64,000 nt of DNA from Candidatus Cloacimonadales bacterium (GCA_963667035.1 OY762964.1:1920001-1984000); one strand, 5' to 3'. Positions 21,699-61,811 are shown, counted from the first letter of the stretch. The notes: a model not told the origin generated them from the letters alone. Program-made: numbers and translations.

Positions 21699-22370
21699 AT
21701 TAAACACTGTAGTTACATAGTTGTCAAATTTCCGGATATAGAGTTTCAAAGTAGAGATTTACCAAAACTGAGAGGTTTTTTTGCTAATAAATTCAAAGAT
21801 AACACTATCTTTCATAATCATTTACCGGATGGTAAATATTCTTATAGAATGCCATTGATACAATACCGGATAATTGATGGGTATCCTGCTTTGATAGGAA
21901 TCAGAGACGCAATAGACATAATCAAAGGACTGTTCTTTGATTTAAACGAAATCACTATTCTCGATAAACAGTTTGTAACAAATGAAAGAGAAGTCTGTTT
22001 TTTAGAAGAATCACTAGGGATAAGTGAAGACTACAAGAACTATATATTTTCATCTCCATGGTTAGCTCTTAATCAGGAGAATCATAAATCCTACAAACAA
22101 ATGCATCCGATAGAACAGAAACGTTTTCTAAACAGAATCTTAAAGAACAATCTTTTAACTCTCTCCAAAGGCTTTGAGTACTGGATCGAAAACTTTGATA
22201 AAGTAGAGCTTGAAGGATGGTTTCATGAGATACAAGTGAATTTTAAGAATAGAAAACTGATTGGTTTTAAGGGCGAGTTTACAACGAACTTTGCAATCCC
22301 TAAATATTTCGGACTAGGTAAACAGTCAGCTCGTGGATTTGGAGTTGTTGAACTGAAAAAGGAAGGATAA
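21699..22370 (+). CDS. cas6: CRISPR-associated endoribonuclease Cas6 (type I-B); first in-frame codon after the SD is ATT
   Basis: Frame extends 50 codons upstream of the tracked ORF (KFPD...LPKLRGFF...FHNH...YRMPLIQY); C-terminal GLGKQSARGFG G-rich loop; AGGAGG 6 nt before ATT. Confidence 0.85.
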   Translation: MKHCSYIVVKFPDIEFQSRDLPKLRGFFANKFKDNTIFHNHLPDGKYSYRMPLIQYRIIDGYPALIGIRDAIDIIKGLFFDLNEITILDKQFVTNEREVCFLEESLGISEDYKNYIFSSPWLALNQENHKSYKQMHPIEQKRFLNRILKNNLLTLSKGFEYWIENFDKVELEGWFHEIQVNFKNRKLIGFKGEFTTNFAIPKYFGLGKQSARGFGVVELKKEG

Positions 22371-24217
22371 TGATACATAAAATGTATGCTCTATATGATT
22401 TGTTTGGTGTTGATTTTGTCGAAAGTATGAATAATCAGTATGGACTCGTTAATGACGATGAAGAGCACATTGTAATCGTTCAAAACATTGAGTTGAAGAA
22501 TAATATTGCCTCTTTAGGTAGAATTGAAATGCTTCAATATAATAAACAGATGAATCTGAGGAACTTTTTTTATAAAAAAGCTCCCGGTCAGAGAAAGTCA
22601 CCTTTCCCCACTATTGTTGTGACTTTAGATTCATTAAGTCATGAGTCAAATGGGAAAAATGAGTTTGAATCAAAATTCTCAAGGAAGATATCAGCAATTC
22701 TTTCCGGAAATTGCAAAATTAACAAGGAATTGAAGCCAATACTGAATCTACATCAGAACGAAATTTCTATTATATCCGATACTCTTAAAGAGACAATATC
22801 CATTAAGCCGAAGGATAAGTATTTATATACAATCAAGATTAATGGTTTTTACACTGGAGAATCTGAGTATTATAATGGAATCAAAAAGAATAGTATCGAA
22901 AATCTATACTCAGGATATTATCATTTAAGTGAATCAAAAGAGATTCAAGGTAAGGATTTTACATGCTCAATCTGTAGAAGTAACTCAAAAACAGCATGGG
23001 GTTATGTTTCTACTTTCAATTTCTATACATCAAAAACAGACCATCAGCCAATTGCTGGTGGATTCATGAAGGAAAGAGCCCACTACAATTATCCTGTTTG
23101 CCCTGAATGTGCGGAAAAACTATATAAAATGAAACCTCTGATTGAGAATTATTTTAATTACAGATTCTGTGGACTCAACTACTTCTTGATACCTGAATTC
23201 ATTTCGGTAAGTTTAAACAAAAACTATATCAAAGATATATTGGAACTCTTTGTTACCGATAACAGAGAGGAAACCAAAATTGGAAAGTTAAGTCTCGGAA
23301 AAAATAGAAGTATTGTAGAAGATGATACCGAAGATATATTTGAGTCTTTATCTGAATCTAAGAACATAGCAAACTATACTATGCTATTCTATCAACAAAA
23401 CAATCAAGAGTTTAAAATTCTCTCTACTCTGGAAGGTATATTTCCCAGTCAATTCGAGAAGATTTTTACAACTAAAGATATTGTTGAATCTTATGAAGTT
23501 TTCCATAAACTAAAGGGTTTAAAGAAGGATGCTATCGATAATCATAAATTTACTTTCAACGGTATAGTTAAAGCCTTTTTCCCTATTAATAGTAAAATGG
23601 AAGGCGATTTTACAAAAGCTTTCTTAGAAATATCCAGAGCTATATTTATGCAGAGCACAATTGAGTATAATTATATCCTTGATAGGATTGTGAAAGTTAT
23701 CCGTAAACAGTTTATTAATGAACAATATTGGAGTATTTATACATTAAAAGGATTAATGTTGTTGCACTTTTTGATTGAATTAGGGTCAATAAATAAAGAG
23801 AAACCTAAATTTAAGGAGGTAAATTTGAATAAGAAGTATTGTGATTTCTTTACTGAACACAGTAGTGTTTTCGGTACGAATTCAGCAAAAGCCGTCTTTT
23901 TGATTGGAGTATTGTGCCAATTCCTTCTAAATATACAACAACGGGAAAGAAGCTGTACACCATTTAGGAAAAAGTTAAATAGTCTGAAGCTTAATCCTGA
24001 GTTAATAACAAAACTTTATCCACAGATTATCGAGAAATTGGAGCAATATGATTCCAACTATTACAAAGAATTGGAAACGGATATATCTAGTTTGCTGATA
24101 ACTGAAAGTCTGGACGTCCTTAACAATAATGAGATAAGTTTTTATTTTGTTTTGGGTATGACACTTAGTAAAAAACTTAAGATTGATAAAAATGAAAAAG
24201 GAGATAATAATGATTAA
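22370..24217 (+). CDS. cas8b: Type I-B large subunit Cas8b (Csh1/TM1802-like)
   Basis: CSIC...YPVCPEC zinc motif, C-terminal FLIGVL...QQRER..PF..KL, FYFVLGM; position between cas6 and cas7. Confidence 0.88.
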   Translation: MIHKMYALYDLFGVDFVESMNNQYGLVNDDEEHIVIVQNIELKNNIASLGRIEMLQYNKQMNLRNFFYKKAPGQRKSPFPTIVVTLDSLSHESNGKNEFESKFSRKISAILSGNCKINKELKPILNLHQNEISIISDTLKETISIKPKDKYLYTIKINGFYTGESEYYNGIKKNSIENLYSGYYHLSESKEIQGKDFTCSICRSNSKTAWGYVSTFNFYTSKTDHQPIAGGFMKERAHYNYPVCPECAEKLYKMKPLIENYFNYRFCGLNYFLIPEFISVSLNKNYIKDILELFVTDNREETKIGKLSLGKNRSIVEDDTEDIFESLSESKNIANYTMLFYQQNNQEFKILSTLEGIFPSQFEKIFTTKDIVESYEVFHKLKGLKKDAIDNHKFTFNGIVKAFFPINSKMEGDFTKAFLEISRAIFMQSTIEYNYILDRIVKVIRKQFINEQYWSIYTLKGLMLLHFLIELGSINKEKPKFKEVNLNKKYCDFFTEHSSVFGTNSAKAVFLIGVLCQFLLNIQQRERSCTPFRKKLNSLKLNPELITKLYPQIIEKLEQYDSNYYKELETDISSLLITESLDVLNNNEISFYFVLGMTLSKKLKIDKNEKGDNND

Positions 24218-25103
24218 AAGAACCGAGATTCTATTCTTGTATGATGTACAAAATGCAAATCCTAATGGAGACCCTTCAGATGAGAATAAGCCACGTATTG
24301 ATGAAGAAACAGGAATCAATATTGTTACTGATGTAAGGCTAAAAAGAACCATCAGAGATTATCTCATGAAATACAAAGGTTACAATGGAGAAAATGGAAA
24401 GGATATATTTATCCGTCAAACCAATGTTGATAATGATCCGGCTAAAGGATTAAATGACGCAAAAGGAAGAGCTGAAAACTTCAACAATGATGAAAATAAG
24501 ATTATTGAAACATGCATTGATGTAAGACTCTTCGGTGGTGTTATTCCTGTAAAGAAGACTGGTAAGAAAGACAGCTCAATTACTTTAACCGGTCCCGTTC
24601 AGTTTAAGATGGGGCAATCACTTCACAAAGTCAAGTTACAACACATAAAGGGAACGGGAGCATTTGCTTCTAAAGCAGGTGCAGAACAGCAAACATTTAG
24701 AGAAGAGTATATACTTCCTTATTCGTTGATTGCTTTCTATGGTATTATCAATGAAAATACTGCAAAGCACACTAAACTAAGGGAAGCTGATGTTGAAGAC
24801 CTCTTCGAAGCCATTTGGAATGGTACAAAACAACTAACTACCCGTTCAAAGTTTGAGCATAATCCTAGAATGTTGTTAACAATTGAGCATGATAATCCGA
24901 ATTTCTTTATCGGTAATCTAGATAAATACATTAGTCTCAAATCAGATAAAAAAGATGATGAGTTAAGAAATATTTCCGAGTTAGCTCTTGATATGGAGGC
25001 TCTAGTAATAAAACTGTCTGAGTTAAAAAAAGATGATAATAAATTCAAGGTTGTTATGCGTGAAAAAGACTCAAATCTAACACTTGAAAACTGGGATTAC
25101 TAA
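24210..25103 (+). CDS. cas7: Type I-B Cas7 (Csh2)
   Basis: NPNGDP...PRID, VTDVRLKRTIRD, DVRLFG, TGPVQF, TRSK. Confidence 0.93.
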   Translation: MIKRTEILFLYDVQNANPNGDPSDENKPRIDEETGINIVTDVRLKRTIRDYLMKYKGYNGENGKDIFIRQTNVDNDPAKGLNDAKGRAENFNNDENKIIETCIDVRLFGGVIPVKKTGKKDSSITLTGPVQFKMGQSLHKVKLQHIKGTGAFASKAGAEQQTFREEYILPYSLIAFYGIINENTAKHTKLREADVEDLFEAIWNGTKQLTTRSKFEHNPRMLLTIEHDNPNFFIGNLDKYISLKSDKKDDELRNISELALDMEALVIKLSELKKDDNKFKVVMREKDSNLTLENWDY

Positions 25104-25117
25104 ACATGGAGGACTAA

Positions 25118-25834
25118 ATGACTCCAGAAAGAGTATTAGTATTTGATTTAGCAGGTGATTACGCCCAGTTCAGGAAGTTCTTCACAAATATGTCTCCTAC
25201 TACTTTTTCAGTACCACCCCGTACTGTTATCGTAGGAATTATTGGAGCAATAATCGGAATTGATAAAAGCATCAATCCTAGTATATATCATGAAAAAAGT
25301 AGTTTTGTTGGTATCAAACTGTTAAAACCGATTAAGAAAACATCGATTACAATGAACTATATTAAAGCAGTTACAATGTCTCAGATTAATCGATTTAAGA
25401 ACCATAAACCAACTAACATAGAGTTCTTGAAGGATGTGGCATATAGAATCTATTTCTCTCACACAGATGATAAAATATACAATGAGTTAAAATCAATGCT
25501 GTCTCAAAACGGTTCTTATTACTCTATCTCATTAGGATTAAGTAATTGTCTTGCTGAGTATGAGTTTCGTGGTGAATTCGCAATCGAGAAAGGCTCCAAT
25601 AATGCTAAGTATAGTATCGCCTCAGTAATACCTTATGAAATGATAAAAGAGCTTATCTTTAGTGAGAAGTTACATATTCGTAAGGATACCATTCCAGGGA
25701 CAATGAATGCAGATAGAAAAGTGACTAATTATAGAGAAATAATATTTGAGACTGAAGGGCACTCCATAGAGATAGTACCGCAAGAGCCACCATTATATAT
25801 CAAAAATCTCGATGAATATATTTATGGAATCTGA
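25118..25834 (+). CDS. cas5: Type I-B Cas5 (Cas5h)
   Basis: GDYAQFRK...TFSVPPRT..GIIGAIIG; SLGLSNCLA. Confidence 0.92.
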   Translation: MTPERVLVFDLAGDYAQFRKFFTNMSPTTFSVPPRTVIVGIIGAIIGIDKSINPSIYHEKSSFVGIKLLKPIKKTSITMNYIKAVTMSQINRFKNHKPTNIEFLKDVAYRIYFSHTDDKIYNELKSMLSQNGSYYSISLGLSNCLAEYEFRGEFAIEKGSNNAKYSIASVIPYEMIKELIFSEKLHIRKDTIPGTMNADRKVTNYREIIFETEGHSIEIVPQEPPLYIKNLDEYIYGI

Positions 25835-28121
25835 GTTACTTTCACATCCTAAGATAACGCTTGACGAACACCTTACAAGTGTTTATTTAAGAGGAATTAA
25901 ACTATTTGAGAAGAATAGAGTTTTCTCGGAATTAAAAAGGATTCTGGAAATCTCTCTTCTCTTTCATGATCTTGGCAAAGCTTCTAAACACTTTCAGAAT
26001 TACATAAGAGGAACAGAACTCAAAAGTAACAGTTCTAGGCATTCCGGAATTTCTGCTGCCTGGACATATCTATATCTCTCCAAGTTGCTTAAGCTATCCG
26101 AGCTCGATTCATTATTAGGTTACCTGATTGTGAGGAAACATCATAACAATTTTGATGACATTAAACAAATGCTTATAATGCCTGATGAAAGCTTGTTAGA
26201 GATAAGTGAAAATATAGACTATGACAAGCTTGTCAAAATCTATTCTAAAGCACTGGACGATTGTATCGTTATTGAACATGACATGTTTGTAGAGTTTCTT
26301 AAGCAATTAGAAACCAAATCACTATACAGGAGATTGAGAAGACATATTAAATCCCTTCCAAATGACTATTGGATAAAGCTAAATTATTTGTTTTCAATCT
26401 TAGTATATGCTGATAAAGAAGAAGCAATTTTCCACTCTAAAGTAGACTCGTCTGACACCAGATATTGGAAACAATCTTTTGTTCCAAACTATATTCAGTC
26501 TCTTCCTAAAACTGAAAGTTTTCTAAACAGTTTAAGAGCAAAAGCTTTTAATAATCTGAATGAATTAACACCAAGACAAGGTATTCAATCAATAAACCTT
26601 CCAACCGGATTAGGAAAAACATTATCAACATTAAATTATGCAATAAAGCTAAAGGACTCATTAAATAGTAATAGTAGTATAATCTACTGCTTACCTTTTA
26701 CATCAATCATTGATCAAAACTTCAATGTCTTTAAGAATGTGTTCCAAATGAATAACTTAAGTTATACTAATAATGCTTTGTTATCCCATCATCATTTAGT
26801 AGATTTAAACTTCATTGGTACTAGCGATTTCAGTCTACATGAATCTGAATTTCTTATTGAGACTTGGAACAGCGAGTTAATTGTAACTACATTTGTGCAA
26901 ATAATCTTAACGCTGTTTTCATTCAGGAACACTTCTTTAAAGAGATTTCATAAATTAGCAAATTCAATAATAATCTTGGATGAGGTACAAAGTATTCCAT
27001 CGGAATACTGGTCACTTATTAGAAAGGGCTTACAAGCTATCTGTGATTATATGAATGCGACCGTTATTCTGGTTACAGCTACGATGCCCTTAATCTTTGA
27101 GAAAAATACATTAGTTGAACTGATTTCAGATAAAGAAAGTTTTTTTGGTAAAATGAATAGAGTAACTCTTGATGTAAGCTTACTCAATAAAAAGACTGAT
27201 ATAAATACATTCATAGACACTATCCTTGGCAGATATAATACTAAACCTGATATAAACAGACTTATCATAGTTAACACAATTCAATGCTCAATACAGCTTT
27301 ATGAGGCACTAAGACTAGAACTTGATTCAGAGAGATTAATCTATCTATCATCTAATGTTATTCCTAAACATCGTTTAAGTAGAATTAATAAAATTAAAGC
27401 TGAACCCGGAAAAGGATTTATCATTGTTTCTACCCAAGTAGTTGAGGCAGGTGTTGATATTGATGTTGAGGAAGTTTATAGGGATTTAGCTCCTTTAGAC
27501 TCAGTAATACAGGCATCAGGAAGATGTAATAGAAATGCTATTGGGAATCAAGGTAATGTTGTACTGATACAATTAACTAACAACAATAGGTTTTATTGGA
27601 GTTTTGTTTATGATCAAGTTTTAATTCAAGCCACAACCAATTCCATTGTCTCCCTGAATAAAATGATTATTCCTGAGATTGATTACCCTAAGTTAACAAA
27701 GCGATACTATTACTCTTTAAATGAAGCAATATCTTAAACAAAATCGGACATGATATGGCAATCTCTAACCTCACTGAATTATTCGCAAGCTTTGGATAAT
27801 ACTAATAATGATAAATATGTATTATCGCTATTTAATGACCATAAAACAACAACTGTTTTTGTGGAAATCGACAATAGTGCTACCCAAGTCATGCAAGAAT
27901 TTTGTTCTCTTGAACTTAATCCTGACGAGAATGAATATGAGTTTAGAGCTCGTAAAAGAGATGCCTACAGAAAGTTATCTCCATACATCATAAATGTTCC
28001 TGAGAAGTATCTTAAAACAGAAAATAACCTGTATATACTAAATAAGGATATGTTAAGAACTATGTATGACGGAGATACAGGATTTAAACGCATGTCTAAA
28101 CAAGAGGACTTTATACTATGA
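25824..28121 (+). pseudogene. cas3: Cas3 (HD nuclease-helicase) interrupted by in-frame TAA at 27735-27737
   Basis: HD (FHDLGK), PTGLGKT, DEVQ, TQVVEAGVDI, GRCNR. The downstream ORF 27750-28121 is in the same frame and completes the C-terminus. Confidence 0.88.
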
Positions 28122-29149
28122 TGCAACTATTTATAAATACTTATGGAACATATATAAAAAAGCACGATGATATGTTTGAACTTGTTATTGATGGCAAGAA
28201 AACAAAGATAACTCCTGAGAAAGTAAGCTCAATAGTAATCACAAACGGAGTCATGTTAACTTCAGATGTTATAAAGCTTGCAATGGATTATAATATTGAT
28301 ATAATCTTTCTTGATGAGTTTGGTGACCCATACGGAAGAATATGGTATCCAAAAATTGGTAGTACAGTTGCTATCAGAAGAAGACAATTGGAAATAATGG
28401 GAGAACCTATTTCTTTGGATTTTATCAAGTACACAATACATTCTAAGATGTCCAACCAGTTAGCTTTTGTTAAGAAGCTTCTTTCTTAACGTGATATCAC
28501 TACAGATGATTATATGAGAAGATTTCGCAGTATGAAAGAGATATTCAATAATTTACATGAAGCTACCGGTTCTCTGGATAATCTATCAAATTCTATACGA
28601 GGTTGGGAAGGTAGTTTCTCTCGTATTTACCTCGAAATACTCAATAACATTATTCCCAAGGCATACAAGTTTTCAGGGAGAAGTAAAAGACCTGCAAAAG
28701 ATGCTTTTAATGCTTTTCTGAACTATGGATATGGTATTCTATATAGTAGAGTCGAAAGAGCCCTTATTATTGCAGGATTAGATCCTTATGTCAGATTTCT
28801 TCATACAGACAACTTTAACAAGAAATCATTAGTCTTTGATTTCATTGAACCATATCGGGATTTAGTTGACGAACAAGTATTTTACATCTTTTCTAAAAGA
28901 CAGTTTAAACAGGAATTCATTGAAGAAATCAAGGATGGTGTAAAAGTTTCCACCGACGGTAAGAAGTTCTTTATCTCAATCCTCATGGAAAGCTTCGATG
29001 AGATAATCAGATACAGAAACAAAAATCGGAAAAGGATTGATACTATCCAAGCGGATGCTCATGCTTTTGCTAACTATTTAATTGGCTGTAATGAAGCATA
29101 TAAAGAGAATTCTGTTGAAACTAGGATTAACAACTTACTTAAGGAATAG
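28118..29149 (+). pseudogene. cas1: Cas1 interrupted by in-frame TAA at 28487-28489
   Basis: N-terminal half (DIIFLDEFGDPYGR) and C-terminal half (GWEG, NAFLNYGYGILY, GLDPY.FLH, FDFIEPYR) lie in one frame separated by a stop. Confidence 0.9.
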
Positions 29150-29158
29150 GTGTCAACA

Positions 29159-29449
<291 letters not shown>

Positions 29450-29451
29450 TT

Positions 29452-30042
29452 ATGAATATTGATTACTATATAACATCTTCGGATGTAATCGAATACCTTT
29501 TCTGCCCCGCTTTTACTTACTTCATGCATGTTTTGAATATTGAGCAAAACGAAAAAAGAAGATTTCTTGTTACTAAAGGGATTGATATACATGAAAAGAA
29601 TCTTGTTAGGAACAAAGACTATCTAAGAAAGAAAGCTGGAGCAGTAAAAAAAGAGTCTGATTTATATCTTACTTCTGATAAACTGAAAATTGTCGGAAGA
29701 CTTGATGAGCTACTGTTTCTTGAAGATGGGACTGTTGCCCCCCTAGATTATAAATACGCTTATTGGGATAATAAATTGTACAGAACATATAAAATGCAAC
29801 AAACGCTCTATGCTCTTCTAGCTGAAGAACACTTCAACTCTATGTCCAATAAAGCTTTCATCGTCTATGTTAGAAGTAAGAAGAAATTAGTTGATTTTGA
29901 TGTTACTCCAACACTCAAAATGGAGGCAATATCTATTGTACACGACATCTTGGATATTATCTCTAATTCCAAATTCCCACAAATTAACAGTTCATCAATG
30001 AAATGCTCTGATTGCACCTATCGAAACATCTGTATTAAATAG
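29452..30042 (+). CDS. cas4: CRISPR-associated exonuclease Cas4
   Basis: N-terminal YLFCP, GRLD..DYK RecB motif, QQTLYA, C-terminal CSDCTYRNIC. Confidence 0.92.
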   Translation: MNIDYYITSSDVIEYLFCPAFTYFMHVLNIEQNEKRRFLVTKGIDIHEKNLVRNKDYLRKKAGAVKKESDLYLTSDKLKIVGRLDELLFLEDGTVAPLDYKYAYWDNKLYRTYKMQQTLYALLAEEHFNSMSNKAFIVYVRSKKKLVDFDVTPTLKMEAISIVHDILDIISNSKFPQINSSSMKCSDCTYRNICIK

Positions 30043-30169: not shown

Positions 30170-30206
30170 ATTACTTACCCACTATCCATTAAATCAAGGA
30201 TTCATT
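30170..30206 (+). repeat. Possible solitary degenerate type I-B CRISPR repeat after an AT-rich leader-like region
   Basis: ACTATCCATTAAATCAAGGATT resembles the ATCCA.TAAAACAAGGATTGAAAC repeat class; single copy only. Confidence 0.45.
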
Positions 30207-43390: not shown

Positions 43391-44794
<1,404 letters not shown>

Positions 44795-45023
44795 TTATGC
44801 ATCTTCGACAAACTTTTATTCACCTGTAAACTAATGGGATATAACAGGTTATATTTTATAAAAAACTTTTCTCTTGCCATGTTATGCTGACTTATTTTTT
44901 TAGCAGATTTATTTATTGAGCTTATCACACTCTAGTGTTGGGATTTTTCTATGTTTTTACTACTATTTTTCCGATGAATCCGGTGGTTTTGCGGAACAAT
45001 TCTTGGGTTAATATTAATAATAT

Positions 45024-45631
45024 TGTTCCGAATTTAACTCAGATTATTCAACCACGTTGTGGTTGTTTTGTTTATGGTGTTCATATACCCCGAATTACAT
45101 TCGGGGCTACTCAGATGTAACCACTTCGTGGTTGCAATACATATGGATTAGGAGAGTTGCAATATATGTAGTGCAAGTCCCCCCACTTGCACATAGCTCA
45201 AAGAGCTATTCATAGATAGCGTCTTTTTTAGTTACCAATACTACGCGACTTAGTTTACCATTTATCTTAAAAATCTATTCATCCACTTCTAATCCCAACG
45301 GGATTAAATATGAGTAGCCATGCATGAAATGCATGGTTACTAGCCTAAAAGTGTCGACCCCAAAGTGGGTCGAATATCTACAGTATTATCAAAGCTAGCG
45401 TCTATAAAAGTTTACTAGTACAACGTAAAGCGATTAGACCATGTTCCGATTAAAACTAAGATTATTCAACCACGTTGTGGTTGTTTTATTTATGGTGTCC
45501 CTAAACCCGAATTGCATTCGGGGCTATTCAGAGGTAATCCCATTCGGGATTGCAATACATGTGGTACAGGAGAGTTACAATGTATGTAGTGCAAGTGCCT
45601 CACTTGCACATAGCGATTAGACCATGTTCCG
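45024..45631. repeat. Cluster of REP/REPIN-like elements: two ~155-bp direct repeats bracketing an inverted family member
   Basis: 45041-45197 is similar to 45459-45614; inverted homolog at 45290-45376; GTAG-hairpins at 45168 and 45586; AGCGATTAGACCATGTTCCG at 45429 and 45612. Confidence 0.8.
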
Positions 45632-45839
45632 CTTGGAGTCGAACTCCCACCGGTCGTTTGGACTCGAGCTAAAGACTGTAAACATCCTTTTATATATACT
45701 AGTTCCCCCCTTTTTTACATTTTGCATCTTTCATTTTGCTTTTTCTCCTAACTCATATTCCTCTCTCTACTCTCAGCAGTAACAATTGCTTTAAAATCAA
45801 TTTTAACTTATTAATAAATTAGCCACTTCTTGGTAATTA

Positions 45840-45894
45840 ACCCAAGGATTACCCAAGTGTTTCACAAGGGTTTCACAAGTGTCTCACAGGAATT
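45840..45894. repeat. Five 11-bp tandem units upstream of cas13b
   Basis: ACCCAAGGATT ACCCAAGTGTT TCACAAGGGTT TCACAAGTGTC TCACAGGAATT. Confidence 0.75.
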
Positions 45895-45970
45895 ACTGCC
45901 GGGAGATGAGAGAGAAATGAGGTTGATTAGCTTGATTTAATAGCTTTTAGGACAAAAGTTAAAAAGTTGC

Positions 45971-45997
45971 TTGACCTAAATACAATTTACTTATACT
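45971..45997 (+). promoter_or_regulatory. Putative promoter of cas13b
   Basis: TTGACC-N15-TATACT about 30 nt before the GAGGAG-N6-ATG start. Confidence 0.5.
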
Positions 45998-46026
45998 CAA
46001 ACATTAAAAATGAAGAGGAGCATTTT

Positions 46027-49000
46027 ATGATAGAGAAAATGAATAGAGAAACCAAAGTTCGTTTCGGGTTATTCCTCAATTATGCAGAGCATAACATTGT
46101 TATTGTACTGCAATTCATACATGATATATTACTCAAACAGTGGAAGAAGTGTATTGATGTAGATAGTTCAAAACCGTTTGAATCTGACTTGCTACAACGC
46201 TTAGAGTACACTGACTTCCAGCAAATGGAACAAACGCTAAGTCTCATTAACAAACACTTTCCTTTTCTGGGAAAAATGATAGATTCTAACAAATTAGACA
46301 ATCTGAGCTTAGAAGGAAAAGCTAAGCGAGCTTCAGAAAATCTTATCTTATTGCTTAAAGCAGTACATGAGTTGAGAAATCAATGTAGTCATGAGTCGTA
46401 TGATTTAACAGGAGAAGAAACCCTCTTATCAAAAGATGATATAGAAACTATCCGTTACAGACTAAACAGGGTATTTGATGCATCGGTGGATGAGGCAAAG
46501 AGACGATTCTTTGCTCCGGATAAAACTGATGATGAGATAGAAAAAGACCTTAACCATCTAAGAAGATATATTTCCGTAAACAAGAAACGAGAAGATAATC
46601 CTGCTTTCAAATACAGGATTGTTGAAAACGAAGAGCTAACAATTAATGGAATTGCTTATATAACTTCCCTATTTTTAGAAAAAAGAGAAGCATATCTATT
46701 GCTTAACAGTCTTTCCGGGTTTAAAGAAAACAGAACTGATTGGTCCAGGTTAACAAAAGAGTGTTACACAGTTTATAGGATGCAACTTCCTCGTTCACAA
46801 GTAACCTCAAACTATGGGAAAGAGGGTTTGTTACTTGAAATGGTCAGTGAATTAATAAAATGCCCCCATGAGATATTCAAGCATCTTTCTGAGGAAGAGA
46901 GGAATAGGTTTGAGCCAAATCTCCAAAATGATGCTAGTGATTCAGAAGATGAGAATGAAAATGTTCTTAAAAGATACAATGACCGCTTTACTTATCTTGC
47001 CCTTAGATATATTGATGATAATAATCTGTTTGAGAACATTAGGTTCCAGATAGATTTGGGACGGTACTATAAAGAAAGCTACGATAAAACAACAATCAGT
47101 GGTGAGAGAGTGAATCGCAACTTGACCAAAAGGCTCACAACCTTCGGTAGATTGAAAGAAGTAAAGGATATAGTAGTTAAAGATTGGAATGATATAACCA
47201 AATCCACTACCGATAATCCTGTTCCACCATATAGAACAGATACTGTTCCTCACTATCATATAGTTAACAATCAGATTGCATTAAAGATAAATGAAACCGG
47301 TTTACCAAATCTTAGTGAATCAATAAAGCTATCTACACCTGATGCTTGGATTAGTGCTTATGACTTACCCGGGCTTATCTATATTGGTATTATCTCTAAT
47401 GATTTTAAAAGTCTCGAGAATAAAATCATTGGATATATAAAACAAACCTGGAAGAAGTTTGCTTCTGTGGCAGATGGAGAGAAGGACTTAGATGATATAT
47501 CATTACCACTGAAACATACACTCAAAGCTTTAAATAATAACAATGAGATTCTTTTTAGAAAGAAGAAACATGCTCAGATATTTGAAGAAACTGAGAATCT
47601 GCTAAAGAGCTATGACAATAGGGTAGAGAAATTACAAGATAGAAAAACAAAGCCTAAAGATAAAAAGAAGTATCAGATAAGGGCAGGTATTCTTGCGGAT
47701 TATTTGGCTAAGGATATGGTTAAGATGCAACCCTATTCACCTGAAAAGCAAGGAAAAGACAAGATTACTTCGATTAACTTCCGTTCCTTACAATCTAATC
47801 TTGCTTTCTTTGGGAGTAGCAAAGATAGCCTTAAGGAAGTCTTCCAAAGAGCAGGTCTCATCGCAAGAGTAAATCAGCACCCTTTCCTCTCAAAGATAAA
47901 CCCTTCCGACTACTCGGCAATCGGTCCATTTTATAAGAAATATCTGCTTTCAAAAATTGAGTTCTTGGAGAAATGTCAGAGGAATGATGACTATTCTCAT
48001 GTTACTTTTAAACCGACAAGAAACAAGTATTCCGACTCCAGAGGTTCTATAAAAGAAGTAGCTGAAAGACTGAGTCATTCTCCAGTAAATATCAACTCTG
48101 AGTTCTTTCTTAATCTTCTGAAGCAAGAGCTTCCTTCAATTACTAACGAAAGAATGAATCTGTCTTGGCTGATTAAAAAACATTATAACAAACAAGGATT
48201 CGAGCTTCAAGATATATATTCTAAGCCCAAGAGTTATGAACTTCATAAGAAAGTGGGGAACTATATTTCAAAGAATAAAGGGATAAGAAGACAACTAGAA
48301 GAAATATCTAATTGTAATAACTGTTTTGAAGCTCGCAAACTTGTTAAAGCATTGCCTGAACTTGAGTATAATCCTCCAACTTTAAAGCAAACACTCCTTA
48401 AACTTTGTCAGGACTTCAACAAGAATGAGAAATTAATCCGTTTTAGAGAGTTACAGGATATTGTGATGATTACAATGGTGAATGAGCTGATAAAAGAGAT
48501 TATGACTAATCCGGAAGATGAATTTAAACCTATTCGACTTGAAAGCTTAACTCCGGAGAATACGGATCCTCTTAACAACCCTATTGACACAACTCTTAGC
48601 ATTTGTCTTGAAGAAGTTAAGAAAAAAAAGAAAGATAAGGCTAATTATGTTATCAAACAGTTTGAGATAAAGAATGTTAAGATTAAGAACCTTGGTAAGT
48701 ATAAGCGTTATCAACATGATAAAAGATTAATCGGATTAACCTCTTGGATGGGACAGGAACCCTATAACTTCGATACTGTTATTAAAGAGCTAGAGGACTT
48801 TGATAGATACAAAATAGAGATTGCACTTAAGCTAAACGAGTTTGAAAAGGAGATGTTGAAAAAATACGATGGTTTTAAGGCTACAAAAGGGAATGGGTGC
48901 AGATTCGTAGGATTTAAGGAGTATACTGATAAATATAAGAAAGAGTTTGATAAAGAGAATGCGGAGCTGTTAAAAGATATCCGAAATAGAATTTATCATA

Positions 49001-49128
49001 ATGCTTTTCCTAATAAAACAATTCTTAATAATCTGACTATACATAATGAAATAGCTATGGAAATTAAGGATTTTGTGATAGATTTAGTGGATAAAATGCT
49101 CAAAAAACTCAAGGAAAAGGAGGAATAA
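46027..49128 (+). CDS. cas13b: Type VI-B CRISPR effector Cas13b (~1033 aa)
   Basis: HEPN1 LRNQCSH near the N-terminus and HEPN2 IRNRIYH near the C-terminus; Cas13b-type blocks FLNYAEHN, SLFLEK, DRFTYLALRYID, IRFQIDLG, FGRL, GILADYLAKD, HPFL; adjacent 36-nt-repeat array. Confidence 0.92.
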   Translation: MIEKMNRETKVRFGLFLNYAEHNIVIVLQFIHDILLKQWKKCIDVDSSKPFESDLLQRLEYTDFQQMEQTLSLINKHFPFLGKMIDSNKLDNLSLEGKAKRASENLILLLKAVHELRNQCSHESYDLTGEETLLSKDDIETIRYRLNRVFDASVDEAKRRFFAPDKTDDEIEKDLNHLRRYISVNKKREDNPAFKYRIVENEELTINGIAYITSLFLEKREAYLLLNSLSGFKENRTDWSRLTKECYTVYRMQLPRSQVTSNYGKEGLLLEMVSELIKCPHEIFKHLSEEERNRFEPNLQNDASDSEDENENVLKRYNDRFTYLALRYIDDNNLFENIRFQIDLGRYYKESYDKTTISGERVNRNLTKRLTTFGRLKEVKDIVVKDWNDITKSTTDNPVPPYRTDTVPHYHIVNNQIALKINETGLPNLSESIKLSTPDAWISAYDLPGLIYIGIISNDFKSLENKIIGYIKQTWKKFASVADGEKDLDDISLPLKHTLKALNNNNEILFRKKKHAQIFEETENLLKSYDNRVEKLQDRKTKPKDKKKYQIRAGILADYLAKDMVKMQPYSPEKQGKDKITSINFRSLQSNLAFFGSSKDSLKEVFQRAGLIARVNQHPFLSKINPSDYSAIGPFYKKYLLSKIEFLEKCQRNDDYSHVTFKPTRNKYSDSRGSIKEVAERLSHSPVNINSEFFLNLLKQELPSITNERMNLSWLIKKHYNKQGFELQDIYSKPKSYELHKKVGNYISKNKGIRRQLEEISNCNNCFEARKLVKALPELEYNPPTLKQTLLKLCQDFNKNEKLIRFRELQDIVMITMVNELIKEIMTNPEDEFKPIRLESLTPENTDPLNNPIDTTLSICLEEVKKKKKDKANYVIKQFEIKNVKIKNLGKYKRYQHDKRLIGLTSWMGQEPYNFDTVIKELEDFDRYKIEIALKLNEFEKEMLKKYDGFKATKGNGCRFVGFKEYTDKYKKEFDKENAELLKDIRNRIYHNAFPNKTILNNLTIHNEIAMEIKDFVIDLVDKMLKKLKEKEE

Positions 49129-49202
49129 TATGCAAAATGAAGTGAAGTATTCATGGTTTTGCATCTCTAATCCCATGTGTTTTATAGCTTTACAAAAAGC
49201 CT

Positions 49203-49571
49203 GTTACAGTACCCTCTGTTTTGGAGTCGGAGTGTAACTACTACCTGCATCAAACCACCCAATAAGTGTGTTACAGTACCCTCTGTTTTGGAGTCGGAGT
49301 GTAACACCGTTACTGATGAAGAGGATACAATCGTTGTTACAGTACCCTCTGTTTTGGAGTCGGAGTGTAACGGAACTGATCCCTTTATAAGATACAAAGT
49401 TGGTTACAGTGCCCTCTGTTTTGGAGTCGGAGTGTAACGGCAATATTCAACGAAGCTAGCAACTTCTAAGTTACAGTGCCCTCTGTTTTGGAGTCGGAAT
49501 GTAACTACTTGGACCGCAAGCATCCTTGCTTGCATATTACATTGCTCTCTACTATTGAATCGGATTATAGC
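49203..49571 (+). CRISPR. Type VI-B CRISPR array: repeat GTTACAGTACCCTCTGTTTTGGAGTCGGAGTGTAAC (36 nt), 5 repeats + 1 degenerate, 5 spacers
   Basis: Repeats start at 49203, 49270, 49336, 49403, 49470 and 49536 (degenerate, 25/36 to repeat 5). Spacers are 31, 30, 31, 31, 30 nt. Terminal GTTACA/TGTAAC pairing with a central TTTT loop. Confidence 0.97.
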
Positions 49572-49773
49572 ATTATCAATATGACACAGACTATTAGCAT
49601 ACTCCGAAGTGGGAGTTTAGGAGGATGCAATTATTGACAGGGATTATCGGACATAGTCACTCTTGATAGGCAGAAATTAATACTATTTTTACTTGACATC
49701 TGACAGAACAAGATTGCATTTATTCGTGCAGGCTCAATTTGAGTGAAAAAGAAAAAAGTAGGTAATTTATTCG

Positions 49774-50916
49774 ATGAGAATCCCATTTAATATTCCATTT
49801 TTAACCGGAAAAGAGAGTGAATACATTCAAGAAGCATTGAATAGTAAAAGGCATTGCGGAAATCACGCTTTTGCTAGAAGAGTAATCTCTCACATGCAAG
49901 CACAACACGGACTTGGAGAGGTCTTCCTCACACCATCCGGAACTGCCGCTTTAGAGATGGGAGCATTGCTAGCCGATATTAAAGAAGGAGACGAGGTGAT
50001 TGTCCCCTCTTATACATTCAGCTCCACAGCTAATGCAATAGTGCTTAGAAATGCTACTCCGGTATTTTGCGAAATAAATCCCAAAACAATGAATATAGAT
50101 GTTGATAGAATTGAGGAGTTGATAACTCCCAGAACTAAGCTGATAGTTCCGATAGATTATGCAGGTATACCTTGCGAGATAGATAGAGTTATGGAAATTG
50201 CCAAGAAACATAATCTTTTGGTGATGCATGACACCGCTCAATCATACGGTTCTTTCTATAAAGGCAAAGCCACCGGTAGTTGGGCTGACTTTGCGACGTT
50301 CAGTTTTCATGAAACAAAGAACATTACTTGCGGTGAAGGCGGAGCTTTAGTTATCAATAATCCTAAATTCGTGCAAAGAGCTCATTTCTTACAAGAGAAA
50401 GGAACAGACAGATCACTGGTATTAAGCGGTGTAAAAAGTAAATATCATTGGGTTGATTTAGGCTCAAGTTTCTTATTGGCAGACATCTTATCCGCTCAGC
50501 TCTATGCTCAAATGGAAGCGGAAAACGCTATCTTTGCAAAAAGAAAGACTGTGTTTGATGCTTACAGTAAACTATATGAACCTTACGAATTGAAAGGCTA
50601 CATCTCTATTCCTCATCTTAACGATGATATGGCTATTAACTACCATGCCTTCTGGGTTATATTTGATAAACCGCAATCCAGAGATAAGTTCATAGAGTTA
50701 CTAAAACAAGATGAAGTTTATGCTTATATTGGCTACATGCCGTTACACTCAGCCCCAATGGGTCAAAGATACGGTTATACCAAAGAGAGTTTGCCTATCA
50801 CGGAAGATATTGCTACCAGATTAGTGAGACTACCACTATATGCGGATATGGCTGATGAAGAATTGGATTACTGTCTGAGTGCTATGCAAAAGGTGATTGA
50901 GAAGCTTTATGATTAA
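49774..50916 (+). CDS. wecE: DegT/WecE-type TDP-4-keto-sugar aminotransferase
   Basis: TPSGTAALEM, YTFSSTANA, DTAQS, SFHETKNITCGEGG, EKGTDR. Confidence 0.88.
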   Translation: MRIPFNIPFLTGKESEYIQEALNSKRHCGNHAFARRVISHMQAQHGLGEVFLTPSGTAALEMGALLADIKEGDEVIVPSYTFSSTANAIVLRNATPVFCEINPKTMNIDVDRIEELITPRTKLIVPIDYAGIPCEIDRVMEIAKKHNLLVMHDTAQSYGSFYKGKATGSWADFATFSFHETKNITCGEGGALVINNPKFVQRAHFLQEKGTDRSLVLSGVKSKYHWVDLGSSFLLADILSAQLYAQMEAENAIFAKRKTVFDAYSKLYEPYELKGYISIPHLNDDMAINYHAFWVIFDKPQSRDKFIELLKQDEVYAYIGYMPLHSAPMGQRYGYTKESLPITEDIATRLVRLPLYADMADEELDYCLSAMQKVIEKLYD

Positions 50917-54290: not shown

Positions 54291-54434
54291 ATATATTATT
54301 ATAAAAATAATAGTTGACCTACTCAAGTATACATCATATTAATTGTCTATAATATATCAAGAATCTGTATACATCTGTCAAAAGCATTGCACATTGGTGC
54401 GAACAATTAACACTTAAGCGACTATGGAGTTTTG

Positions 54435-60222: not shown

Positions 60223-61768
<1,546 letters not shown>

Positions 61769-61811
61769 TCATAATTGACTTGTTGGCTTATTATTCACTC
61801 ACTATTTCTGA

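What the first reader, a model, noticed from the sequence alone, without database searches (positions are those of the whole stretch)
46027..49571. Stand-alone Cas13b (type VI-B) with its own array in a probable non-Bacteroidota host, no csx27/csx28 and no cas1/cas2
Seen: a 1033-aa ORF with HEPN motifs RNQCSH and RNRIYH at the two ends and Cas13b-type blocks, followed 74 nt later by a 36-nt-repeat array. The flanks hold only REP-like DNA and a sugar aminotransferase. Established: Cas13b is an RNA-guided RNase found mainly in Bacteroidota, usually ~1100-1200 aa, often with Csx27 or Csx28, with 36-nt repeats ending GTT...AAC around a poly-U loop. Inference: this is a shorter, divergent ortholog; I do not recognise its repeat (GTTACAGTACCCTCTGTTTTGGAGTCGGAGTGTAAC), and the host looks like a Cloacimonadota anaerobe. 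The FQIDLGRYYKESYDK hairpin appears to keep the Lys used for pre-crRNA processing (recalled alignment, unverified). It is a candidate new RNA-targeting tool.
Basis: partly seen in the sequence, partly recalled or inferred. Interest (0 to 1): 0.88.

Follow-up and report, generated by a model that had tools for sequence, protein, structure and literature searches.

The report
Lone Cas13b CRISPR locus in Cloacimonadota
A genuine but divergent RNA-cutting CRISPR enzyme (Cas13b) with its own small array sits alone in a Cloacimonadota chromosome, and its newest spacer is aimed at the transposase message of a Mu-like prophage in the same genome; it is a new member of a well-known family.

Summary
Window 46027-49128 (+) encodes a 1033-aa protein that matches the curated Cas13b model end to end (584 bits, cut-off 150). 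It keeps both HEPN motifs and the lid lysine. Seventy-four nt downstream lies an array of five 36-nt repeats plus a sixth, degenerate one, ending at 49571.

The host is Cloacimonadota. Cas13b was found in 1 of 232 genomes of that phylum, this one. The nearest relatives are at most 37% identical and are mostly Planctomycetota MAGs. Six of 7 related loci carry csx28 between cas13b and the array. Here csx28 and csx27 are absent genome-wide.

New here:
- Spacer 1 matches the same chromosome 31/31, antisense to the MuA-like transposase mRNA of an apparently complete Mu-like prophage.
- The genome also holds type II-C, III (RT-Cas1) and I-B systems; the I-B cas1 and cas2 are broken.
- The II-C array shares repeat length, spacer length, repeat end and leader end with the VI-B array. 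This suggests spacer uptake in trans, which is an inference.

No structure model or RNA data could be obtained. The scan has noted other Cas13b loci on other DNA, but none like this sequence. Verdict: a new member of a known kind, of moderate interest.

The parts
46016..46020 (+). Shine-Dalgarno-like AGGAG, 6 nt before the ATG
   Evidence: read
46027..49128 (+). cas13b, 1033 aa (type VI-B effector)
   Evidence: NF038190 584.2 bits, cut-off 150, residues 8-1013 on profile 3-1056/1066; PADLOC Cas13b 549 bits; PbuCas13b 6DTD E 1.8e-57; family profile against 6DTD E 1.7e-235 end to end
46375..46392 (+). HEPN1 motif RNQCSH (R117...H122)
47086..47088 (+). K354, aligned with PbuCas13b lid K393 (pre-crRNA processing)
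   Evidence: alignment (offset 39); nearly invariant in A1, invariant in A2; role of K393 from PMC11662929 passage
48982..48999 (+). HEPN2 motif RNRIYH (R986...H991)
49129..49202 (+). 74-nt leader; homologous in part to the leaders that follow csx28 in relatives; contains a strong hairpin at 49130-49164
   Evidence: alignment; fold
49203..49571 (+). CRISPR array: five 36-nt repeats plus a degenerate terminal repeat (49536-49571); five spacers of 31, 30, 31, 31 and 30 nt
   Evidence: only array with this repeat in the genome
49239..49269 (+). spacer 1 (leader-proximal): 31/31 match to C1:1659761-1659791, antisense to the mRNA of a MuA-like transposase of a Mu-like prophage
45030..45950 (.). dispersed repeat units bounding the island on the left
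   Evidence: up to 22 copies in G000; dozens in same-genus G113
21849..30042 (+). context: type I-B cas operon (cas6b, cas8b, cas7, cas5, cas3, cas1 with a TAA stop, cas2 with a TAG stop, cas4) with no array beside it

Best explanation
This is a genuine and probably working type VI-B CRISPR-Cas module reduced to two parts: cas13b and a six-repeat array. It belongs to the Csx28-associated (VI-B2-like) branch but has no csx28.

Origin. It is a 3.7-kb insert that the kin genomes searched lack, so it was most likely gained by horizontal transfer.

How it works (inferred from the family). The array is read in the same direction as cas13b. [quoted passage not shown] When a crRNA pairs with a complementary RNA, the two HEPN sites (R117/H122 and R986/H991) cut RNA, including bystander RNA.

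Target (shown). The newest spacer is a perfect antisense match to the transposase mRNA of a Mu-like prophage in the same chromosome.

Consequence (inferred). The lysogen is tolerated while the prophage repressor keeps that early gene silent. The RNase fires when the prophage is induced or a related phage infects.

Spacer uptake (inferred, about 55%). New spacers are supplied in trans by the Cas1-Cas2 of the co-resident type II-C system.
For: Identity as Cas13b. Catalytic and processing residues are kept.

Repeat. The termini pair (GUUACA/UGUAAC) around a U-rich loop. The orientation, T-run and 36-nt length match 6 related loci.

Selection. A second sample from another study (run X4) holds cas13b fragments 90-96% identical. 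Of the 40 differences that one search lists (53 more are not shown), 28 fall on third codon positions by my own count. The binomial p is 2.4e-6.

Island.
- None of 5 kin genomes matches window 46027-49673, while gdhA and the sugar genes do match.
- G113, with 98% 16S identity, lacks the locus.
- Cas13b is present in 1 of 232 genomes of the phylum.

Branch.
- The protein is sister (SH-like support 95) to a clade holding three Planctomycetota MAG proteins.
- Six of 7 related loci carry Csx28.
- The own genome has no Csx28 at E <= 1, and tblastn found nothing below E 0.8.

Target.
- Spacer 1 matches 31/31 at a single site.
- The site lies in a 716-aa ORF on the opposite strand, phrog_310 transposase, E 2e-88.
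- The neighbours are MuB-like, CI-like repressor, amidase, terminase, portal, protease, major head, tape measure and tail fibre genes.
- The flanks in the mRNA are 5' A and 3' GGA. These fit the BzCas13b rule of 5' D and 3' NAN/NNA (passage of 10.1101/092577).

Trans adaptation.
- The II-C system is complete: Cas9, Cas1, Cas2, 14 repeats and a 25-nt anti-repeat upstream of cas9.
- Both arrays have 36-nt repeats. Spacers are 30-31 nt in VI-B and 30 nt (12 of 13) in II-C, against 31-41 nt in type III and 35-37 nt in I-B.
- The repeats agree at 21 of 36 positions in register, including the last six. Five of 100,000 shuffles and 4 of 100,000 random genomic 36-mers reach this.
- Both leaders end in AAAGCCT.
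- The I-B cas1 and cas2 are broken.
- Precedents are F. columnare VI-B with II-C (PMC8092290 passages) and L. seeligeri VI-A with II-C (abstract).
Against: - No RNA or activity data exist for this locus.
- No structure model could be made.
- A perfect self-targeting spacer is also what an inactive system would tolerate.
- The array is short.
- Csx28, which the preprint abstract seen in the listing calls required for robust immunity, is missing.
- The repeat hairpin alone is not more stable than chance (z -1.57; 16 of 200 shuffles fold as well).
- The leader-first-repeat hairpin reported for VI-B systems (PMC13187072) is not predicted here.

Against the II-C link specifically:
- VI-B repeats of six unrelated genomes also share 11-17 of 36 positions with this II-C repeat.
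- The type III repeat shares 17 of 36 with the VI-B repeat.
- Part of the shared leader end (the A-run) is also present in relatives' VI-B leaders.
- No II-C protospacer was found, so a shared acquisition motif could not be tested.
- Only one of five spacers has a known target.
Confidence: 0.8

Rival explanations
1. The locus is an inactive or decaying remnant. After transfer it lost csx28, kept only a few spacers, and the perfect self-match is tolerated because Cas13b no longer works in this host.
For: There is no csx28, although VI-B2 loci 'almost invariably contain csx28' (10.1101/092577 passage). The array has only five spacers, its last two good repeats are mutated and its terminal repeat is degenerate. 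It carries a self-targeting spacer. The neighbouring I-B adaptation genes are broken.
Against: The 1033-codon frame is intact with every catalytic and processing residue. Twenty-eight of the 40 listed differences from the X4 variant are at third codon positions. Repeats 1-3 are identical. The self-match is on the leader-proximal spacer and in the antisense orientation that RNA targeting needs.
Confidence: 0.13
2. Spacers are supplied not by the II-C module but by the RT-Cas1/Cas2 module of the co-resident type III system, possibly from RNA.
For: An intact 855-aa RT-Cas1 fusion and a Cas2 are present. The type III repeat is also 36 nt and shares 17 of 36 positions with the VI-B repeat. RT-Cas1 modules do serve some VI-B1 systems (PMC11662929 abstract and passages).
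Against: Type III spacers here are 31-41 nt and variable, while VI-B spacers are 30-31 nt like II-C. Read from its leader side, the type III repeat shares only 10 of 36 in register. In the published cases the RT-Cas1 genes lie inside the VI-B locus, whereas here they are 1.58 Mb away.
Confidence: 0.15
3. The self-targeting spacer is harmless because the prophage carries an inhibitor of Cas13b, or the match is a relic of a failed defence against the phage that later lysogenised the cell.
For: Self-targeting spacers are commonly linked with prophages (PMC7708048, title and start of abstract in the search listing only). An anti-Cas13b protein, AcrVIB1, exists (10.1101/2024.11.17.623997, start of abstract in the search listing only). 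Many prophage ORFs have no PHROG match.
Against: No inhibitor was identified, and I had no AcrVIB1 sequence to search with. Repression of an early gene in a lysogen already explains tolerance without an inhibitor; this follows from established phage Mu biology and is an inference here.
Confidence: 0.15
4. The cas13b island is an assembly chimera and does not belong to the Cloacimonadota chromosome.
For: Short-read contigs of runs X1 and X2 break on both sides of the island, at the dispersed repeat and inside the array. They therefore do not bridge it to the flanks.
Against: The genome is a single 3.1-Mb contig, 98.2% complete with 0.55% contamination. The cas13b contig has a depth of 4-4.8, similar to 3.7-5.9 for the downstream contig. 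GC, GC3 and codon use of cas13b resemble host genes. The spacer matches a prophage of the same chromosome.
Confidence: 0.03

Closest known systems
PbuCas13b (Prevotella buccae, PDB 6DTD), the reference type VI-B2 effector
   Same: It is the best solved relative (E 1.8e-57 for the protein alone; E 1.7e-235 end to end with the family profile). Both HEPN motifs and the lid lysine K393 (here K354) are kept. The DR is 36 nt and lies downstream in the same direction.
   Different: Only about a third of residues are shared by eye in the aligned N-terminal two thirds; no figure was computed. The protein here is 1033 aa against 1127 aa. There is no csx28, and the host is Cloacimonadota.
Cas13b-csx28-array loci of Planctomycetota MAGs (L013 Anaerohalosphaeraceae, L014 Pirellulales, L015 Phycisphaerales)
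   Same: They form the sister clade in the tree at 33-37% identity. The repeat architecture is the same and the leaders are partly homologous. Two of these genomes also carry a type II system with 36-nt repeats and 30-nt spacers.
   Different: They carry csx28 between cas13b and the array. Their repeats share only 16-19 of 36 positions with this one. Their cas13b GC is 42-52%, against 34% here.
Flavobacterium columnare VI-B locus fed in trans by type II-C Cas1 (Hoikkala et al. 2021, PMC8092290; passages read)
   Same: The VI-B locus lacks cas1 and cas2 and sits beside a complete II-C system. Both arrays have 36-nt repeats, and the repeat similarity is concentrated at the leader-distal end.
   Different: Here the leaders also share their last 7 nt, which the paper says is not so in F. 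columnare. The phylum is different. Nothing has been shown experimentally here.
Listeria seeligeri VI-A/II-C/I-B crosstalk (Margolis and Meeske preprint 10.1101/2024.10.25.620265; abstract read)
   Same: One cell holds type VI, II-C and I-B systems, and the type VI array lacks its own integrase.
   Different: That case is VI-A, not VI-B. Here the I-B cas1 and cas2 are broken and a fourth system (type III with RT-Cas1) is present.
Porphyromonas gingivalis VI-B2 leader-repeat hairpin that blocks an extraneous crRNA (PMC13187072; passages read)
   Same: The guide-repeat crRNA layout is the same, so the first repeat could yield a leader-derived crRNA.
   Different: The minimum-energy fold of leader plus repeat 1 here shows the repeat folded on itself and no leader-repeat helix. 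The leader-derived 31-mer has no target in the genome.
Compact Cas13bt3/Cas13X.1 (PDB 7VTI)
   Same: It shows distant homology over about 130-150 residues (E 8e-6 for the protein alone, 1e-15 with the profile).
   Different: That protein is 775 aa. The present one is a full-length Cas13b.

Membership tests
Cas13b (type VI-B effector) | Full-length match to a curated Cas13b model above its cut-off | tested here: met
   NF038190 584.2 bits against a cut-off of 150, profile positions 3-1056 of 1066; PADLOC Cas13b 549 and 474 bits. Pfam has no hit.
Cas13b (type VI-B effector) | Two HEPN RxxxxH motifs, one near each end | tested here: met
   R117-N-Q-C-S-H122 and R986-N-R-I-Y-H991. R117, H122 and R986 are invariant and H991 at least 90% conserved in 34 homologues.
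Cas13b (type VI-B effector) | Lid-domain lysine for pre-crRNA processing (PbuCas13b K393) | tested here: met
   K354 aligns with K393. It is conserved in at least 90% of 34 and in all 8 aligned sequences. The role of K393 comes from a PMC11662929 passage.
Cas13b (type VI-B effector) | Adjacent co-directional array with 36-nt repeats, about 30-nt spacers, paired repeat termini and a U-rich loop | tested here: met
   The fold energy alone is not significant (z -1.57). No Rfam CRISPR-DR family matches.
Cas13b (type VI-B effector) | Locus lacks cas1 and cas2 | tested here: met
   None lies between gdhA and the sugar genes. The nearest cas1/cas2 are 17 kb away in a I-B operon.
Cas13b (type VI-B effector) | Bilobed Cas13b fold as in 6DTD or 8WF8 | not tested
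Only sequence-profile alignment end to end with 6DTD and 8WF8 is available.
Cas13b (type VI-B effector) | crRNA-guided and collateral RNase activity | not testable with these tools
   Needs a biochemical assay.
Subtype VI-B2 | Cas13b on the Csx28-associated branch | tested here: met
   Six of 7 nearest genomic loci carry Csx28. The best solved hit is PbuCas13b, whose locus is called VI-B2 in 10.1101/092577.
Subtype VI-B2 | csx28 next to cas13b | tested here: not met
   Only 74 nt separate cas13b from the array. NF040556 finds nothing in the genome at E <= 1. tblastn with six Csx28 proteins finds nothing below E 0.8.
Subtype VI-B1 | csx27 next to cas13b | tested here: not met
   PADLOC Csx27 gives only an 18-bit hit 1.6 Mb away, and the same search at this threshold rings in 6 of 14 control genomes.
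VI-B leader-repeat hairpin (block of the extraneous crRNA) | The first repeat pairs with the leader rather than with itself | tested here: not met
   The MFE and centroid of window 49129-49238 show the repeat's own hairpin. This is a prediction only.
Trans adaptation by type II-C Cas1-Cas2 | Complete II-C module in the same genome, with matching repeat and spacer lengths and shared repeat or leader motifs | tested here: met
   In the controls, other VI-B repeats share 11-17 of 36 positions with this II-C repeat.
Trans adaptation by type II-C Cas1-Cas2 | VI-B protospacers carry the II-C acquisition motif; acquisition depends on II-C cas1 | not testable with these tools
   No II-C protospacer was found. 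This needs genetics or in vitro integration.

The most novel reading that the evidence does not exclude
This is a natural two-part VI-B module (cas13b plus array, no Csx28) and the only one found in Cloacimonadota. It would be kept supplied by the integrase of a co-resident II-C system. It would serve as a transcription-gated guard on a resident transposable (Mu-like) prophage: silent in the lysogen, and triggered by the transposase message on induction. That would make it a type VI-B case of conditional tolerance of a temperate phage.
Probability: 0.3. Interest if true: 0.6.

Novelty: new member of a known kind. Interest (0 to 1): 0.45.

Why it matters
- It extends full-length Cas13b to a phylum where none of the other 231 representative genomes has it.
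- It gives a divergent ortholog, at most 37% identical to anything in 1.8 billion cluster representatives, that works (if it works) without the Csx28 partner its branch normally carries.
- It offers a compact natural case for two open questions about type VI systems. One is how arrays without an integrase gain spacers; here II-C, III (RT-Cas1) and a crippled I-B system sit in one cell. The other is how an RNA-targeting system coexists with a prophage it is programmed against.
- As a tool candidate it is one ortholog among hundreds.

Tried and rejected
- Related loci. The search for related loci with the single protein found no relative in genome contigs. The 34-sequence alignment was too diverse to seed a scan. 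An 8-sequence alignment worked.
- Csx27 model. My guess of NF040555 was wrong; it is an unrelated family. PADLOC PDLC01605 was used instead.
- Spacer targets outside the genome. All five spacers gave 0 exact matches in IMG/VR. Spacer 2 with up to 3 mismatches matched only its own array in 232 phylum genomes. Spacers 3-5 were not searched that way. blastn of the VI-B and II-C arrays against 50,697 phage records gave only chance-level hits (E >= 0.08).
- MuA-like protein. No relative was found in IMG/VR by this method.
- Expression. No RNA holder is listed among the public runs, so nothing can be said on expression or crRNA ends.
- Array variants. The laid contigs showed no alternative spacer content.
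- Promoters. Promoter-like sites in 45600-49800 are no more frequent than in shuffles (14 against a mean of 14.1).
- Leader. The leader-derived 31-mer has no genomic target.
- Co-transfer of II-C and VI-B. This is neither shown nor excluded: the own II-C Cas1 is 32-33% identical to those of the two Planctomycetota relatives and the own Cas9 31% identical to that of one (G232).
- Scripts. A regex count of the hairpin motif related to spacer 5 was mis-specified and found nothing; I draw nothing from it. The first tree run timed out in MAFFT. It was rerun with a faster alignment and fewer rows.
- Csx28 preprint. A phrase search for Cas13b without Csx28 found no passage.
- Literature. No paper holds both 'Cas13b' and 'Cloacimonadota'. 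I ran no other literature search on that point.


Full report
**1. The observation**

The frame at window 45967-49128 (+) is open for 1053 codons from a TTG. An AGGAG lies six nt before that ATG, and the Cas13b profile alignment starts at residue 8 of this form. RNQCSH and RNRIYH are residues 117-122 and 986-991.

The quoted 36-nt repeat occurs five times, at 49203, 49270, 49336, 49403 and 49470, with 0, 0, 0, 1 and 2 mismatches. None of 100 shuffles gave a match. The first copy starts 74 nt after the stop codon. A sixth, degenerate copy lies in phase at 49536-49571, with 24 of 36 identical; 0 of 2000 shuffles reached this. It holds five spacers of 31, 30, 31, 31 and 30 nt. No other copy of the repeat exists in the 3.10-Mb, single-contig genome.

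**2. What the protein is**

- NCBIfam NF038190 (VI_Cas13b, equivalog) scores 584.2 bits against a cut-off of 150. It covers residues 8-1013 on profile positions 3-1056 of 1066.
- Two PADLOC Cas13b models score 549 and 474 bits. Pfam has nothing.
- Among solved structures the best hits are PbuCas13b 6DTD (E 1.8e-57), PspCas13b 8WF8 (1.1e-42), BzCas13b 6AAY (2.2e-13) and Cas13bt3 7VTI (8e-6).
- A profile of 34 homologues aligns end to end with 6DTD (positions 38-1122 of 1127, E 1.7e-235) and 8WF8 (E 3.3e-228), but far less well with BzCas13b (3e-60).
- In that alignment R117, H122 and R986 are invariant, and N118, K354 and H991 are at least 90% conserved.
- K354 aligns with PbuCas13b K393 (the offset is 39 by my count). 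A passage of PMC11662929 calls K393 the critical lid residue for crRNA processing.

**3. How divergent it is, and who its relatives are**

A full HMMER pass over 1.84 billion cluster representatives found 683 proteins at E <= 0.001, 587 at <= 1e-10 and 296 at <= 1e-30. The best non-self hits are 36-37% identical. The word-indexed search gave 34%. The length of 1033 aa is within the range of full-length relatives, about 940 to 1290 aa.

A scan of one genome per species found 7 related loci:
- four in Planctomycetota MAGs: Anaerohalosphaeraceae, Pirellulales, Phycisphaerales and Sedimentisphaerales;
- three in Bacteroidota MAGs: Saccharicrinis, Draconibacterium and Crocinitomicaceae.

I built a FastTree tree of 68 rows. 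The rows were the query, six locus proteins, and representatives P0009-P0074 plus P0002-P0004 between 950 and 1300 aa. The frameshifted L017 gene and all shorter or longer rows were left out. In this tree the protein is sister (SH-like support 95) to a clade (support 99) of the three Planctomycetota proteins included plus three metagenomic ones. Its end branch is long, 1.19 against a median of 0.7.

**4. The host**

Ribosomal protein S1 from the window has its best named hits in Candidatus Zophobacter franzmannii (85% identity). After that come Cloacimonas, Cloacimonetes and Cloacimonadaceae MAGs. Zophobacter is filed under Candidatus Cloacimonadota. Three earlier notes on this genome say the same.

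The 16S gene at 60224-61769 (-) is 98% identical to that of the same-genus genome G113 and 86-88% identical to other families searched. I could not classify the 16S against a named reference set.

The Cas13b model hits 1 of 232 genomes of the phylum, or 1 of 151 among the good-quality ones. That one is this genome. No paper in the library holds both 'Cas13b' and 'Cloacimonadota'.

**5. The locus is an island**

In five kin genomes, gdhA (window 43391-44948) and the sugar genes (from 49674) find matches of 68-86%. Nothing matches 46027-49673.

The 0.9 kb to the left (45030-45950) is built of dispersed repeat units. They have up to 22 copies in this genome and dozens in G113.

The cas13b GC content (34.2%), its GC3 and its codon use resemble host genes. 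They do not resemble the 42-52% GC of the Planctomycetota relatives. The transfer is therefore either not recent or not from those lineages. Yet G113, at 98% 16S identity, lacks the locus.

**6. Accessory genes**

In 6 of the 7 related loci an ORF of 181-192 aa follows cas13b directly and precedes the array. All six are Csx28: NF040556 at 82-154 bits against a cut-off of 50, and PADLOC Csx28.

Here the 74-nt gap leaves no room for such a gene. NF040556 finds nothing in the genome at E <= 1. tblastn with the six Csx28 proteins finds nothing below E 0.8. The PADLOC Csx27 model gives only an 18-bit hit 1.6 Mb away, and the same search at this threshold rings in 6 of 14 control genomes.

The 74-nt leader aligns in part with the leaders that follow csx28 in the relatives. 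The layout therefore looks like a VI-B2 locus from which csx28 is cleanly missing. Smargon et al. [quoted passage not shown]

**7. The repeat and leader**

The repeat folds with paired termini (GUUACA/UGUAAC) around an inner stem and a U-rich loop. By energy alone this is not better than chance (z -1.57; 16 of 200 shuffles fold as well).

Its length, T-run and orientation relative to cas13b match the six relatives. It shares only 16-19 of 36 positions with their repeats. It matches no Rfam family.

The mutated copies lie at the end far from cas13b, so the cas13b side is the leader side.

PMC13187072 reports that in VI-B systems the leader pairs with the first repeat and blocks a leader-derived crRNA (passages). 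Here the predicted fold of leader plus repeat 1 keeps the repeat's own hairpin. The leader-derived 31-mer has no target in the genome.

**8. A target**

blastn of the island against its own genome gave one unexpected hit. Spacer 1, the leader-proximal one, matches C1:1659761-1659791 at 31 of 31 positions (E 1.3e-11).

The genome's + strand there reads like the crRNA. The site lies inside a 716-aa ORF on the minus strand, so the crRNA is antisense to that mRNA. The ORF is a transposase (phrog_310, E 2.1e-88), followed by a MuB-like 'DNA transposition protein' (phrog_296).

Within about 30 kb lie a CI-like repressor, an amidase, small and large terminase subunits, a portal/minor-head protein, a head protease, a major head protein, a tape measure protein and a tail fibre protein. 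This is an apparently complete Mu-like prophage.

In the mRNA the protospacer is flanked by 5' A and 3' GGA. That fits the BzCas13b rule of 5' D and 3' NAN or NNA.

No other spacer among those tested had a significant self-match. That covers the remaining three VI-B spacers searched there, 13 II-C spacers and 7 type I-B spacers; the type III spacers were not tested because the script extracted none. Spacer 5 is 25-26 of 30 identical to three sites that share a hairpin motif, and two of these lie in the prophage.

Outside the genome no target was found.

MuA-like genes occur in 82 of 232 phylum genomes, but the best is only 39% identical. The targeted phage is therefore this genome's own.

**9. 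Signs that the gene is kept**

Run X4, from another study, holds cas13b fragments 90-96% identical over 46074-48808. Of the 40 differences the table lists (53 more are not shown), 28 are at third codon positions by my count. The binomial p is 2.4e-6. The contigs of the probable source sample (X1-X3) are identical to the window.

**10. Where spacers could come from**

The genome has three cas1-cas2 pairs.

- Type I-B. The operon lies in the same window at 21849-30042 (cas6b, cas8b, cas7, cas5, cas3, cas1, cas2, cas4). There is one in-frame stop in cas1 and one in cas2, and no array beside it.
- Type III. The locus has an 855-aa RT-Cas1 fusion and two arrays.
- Type II-C. The locus is complete: Cas9 of 1056 aa, Cas1, Cas2, 14 repeats, and a 25-nt perfect anti-repeat about 110 nt upstream of cas9.

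Comparison of the arrays:

| Array | Repeat length | Spacer lengths |
|---|---|---|
| VI-B | 36 nt | 30-31 nt |
| II-C | 36 nt | 30 nt (12 of 13) |
| III | 36 nt | 31-41 nt |
| I-B | - | 35-37 nt |

Read from their leaders, the II-C and VI-B repeats agree at 21 of 36 positions in register. The shared positions include the central GTTTTGG-GTC block and the last six bases. Five of 100,000 shuffles and 4 of 100,000 random genomic 36-mers reach this. Both leaders end in AAAGCCT.

The controls temper this:
- The VI-B repeats of the six relatives share 11-17 of 36 positions with this II-C repeat.
- The type III repeat shares 17 of 36 with the VI-B repeat.
- The A-run of the leader end is also seen in relatives' leaders.

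A II-C repeat with 3 mismatches exists in same-genus G111, so the II-C system looks native to the genus. Two Planctomycetota relatives also combine VI-B with a type II system of 36-nt repeats and 30-nt spacers.

Hoikkala et al. (PMC8092290, passages) showed that the F. columnare VI-B array is filled by II-C Cas1. They found repeat similarity mainly at the leader-distal end, and found equal repeat sizes in only that one of nine species. Margolis and Meeske report the same integrase sharing for VI-A in Listeria, primed by I-B (abstract).

I therefore rate II-C trans adaptation as the most likely route, at about 55%. RT-Cas1 is the alternative.

**11. Verdict**

The locus is a new, divergent and probably functional member of the Cas13b family. 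It sits in a phylum where Cas13b is otherwise unseen and lacks the Csx28 partner of its branch.

The additions made here are:
- the resident Mu-like prophage as the target of the newest spacer;
- the four-system CRISPR background, with a likely II-C donor of spacers;
- the Planctomycetota sister clade.

None of these makes it a new kind of system. Activity, crRNA form, tolerance of the self-match and the adaptation route all remain untested.

Noticed in passing
window 21849-30042; a lone partial repeat near window 30175-30202; genome C1:663251, 758790, 1785064, 1863009: The type I-B operon has cas1 and cas2 each interrupted by one stop codon and has no array beside it. Mini-arrays of 2-4 I-B repeats are scattered over the chromosome. 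Three of them (at 663251, 758790 and 1785064) are followed by the same roughly 100-nt flank.
   Followed up: partly
genome C1:385898-388465 (-), arrays C1:384895-385232 and 397956-398419: A type III locus (Cas10-like and Csx10/Csx7-like RAMPs) carries an 855-aa RT-Cas1 fusion and Cas2. Two arrays flank it. They share the same sequence after the last repeat and differ in a TTATGC/TAGAGC variant inside the repeat.
   Followed up: partly
genome C1:1033248-1033277 and 1033512-1033541: One spacer occurs twice in the type II-C array, as spacers 4 and 8.
   Followed up: no
window 45030-45950: Several families of short dispersed repeats fill the gap between gdhA and cas13b. One 60-nt unit forms a tandem run with period 194 in same-genus genome G113 (C2:182353-183772).
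   Followed up: partly
window 49506-49535; genome C1:1651363, 1660472, 875899: The oldest spacer is 25-26 of 30 identical to three sites that share a GC-rich hairpin motif. Two of them lie inside prophage genes (portal/minor-head and transposase). In the portal gene the motif is read in frame as a low-complexity stretch.
   Followed up: partly
runs X1 and X2, laid on window 45900-49700: The contig that carries the prophage protospacer has depth 7.4 and 8.8, against 4 and 4.8 for the cas13b contig in the same runs. Per-contig depth is a weak measure, so this is only a hint that the prophage is present in more than one copy or in more cells.
   Followed up: no
window 49130-49164: A strong hairpin (AUGCAAAAU...AUUUUGCAU) starts two nt after the cas13b stop codon and has no U-run behind it. 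Its function is unknown.
   Followed up: no
L017 5938-9206 (Sedimentisphaerales MAG): The related cas13b there is split into three frames (213, 347 and 409 aa), although csx28 and a five-repeat array are intact.
   Followed up: no
phylum-wide: MuA-like transposases occur in 82 of 232 Cloacimonadota genomes, often in several copies per genome.
   Followed up: no
window 54432-56738: A 768-aa protein has a T9SS C-terminal sorting domain, in keeping with an FCB-group host.
   Followed up: no
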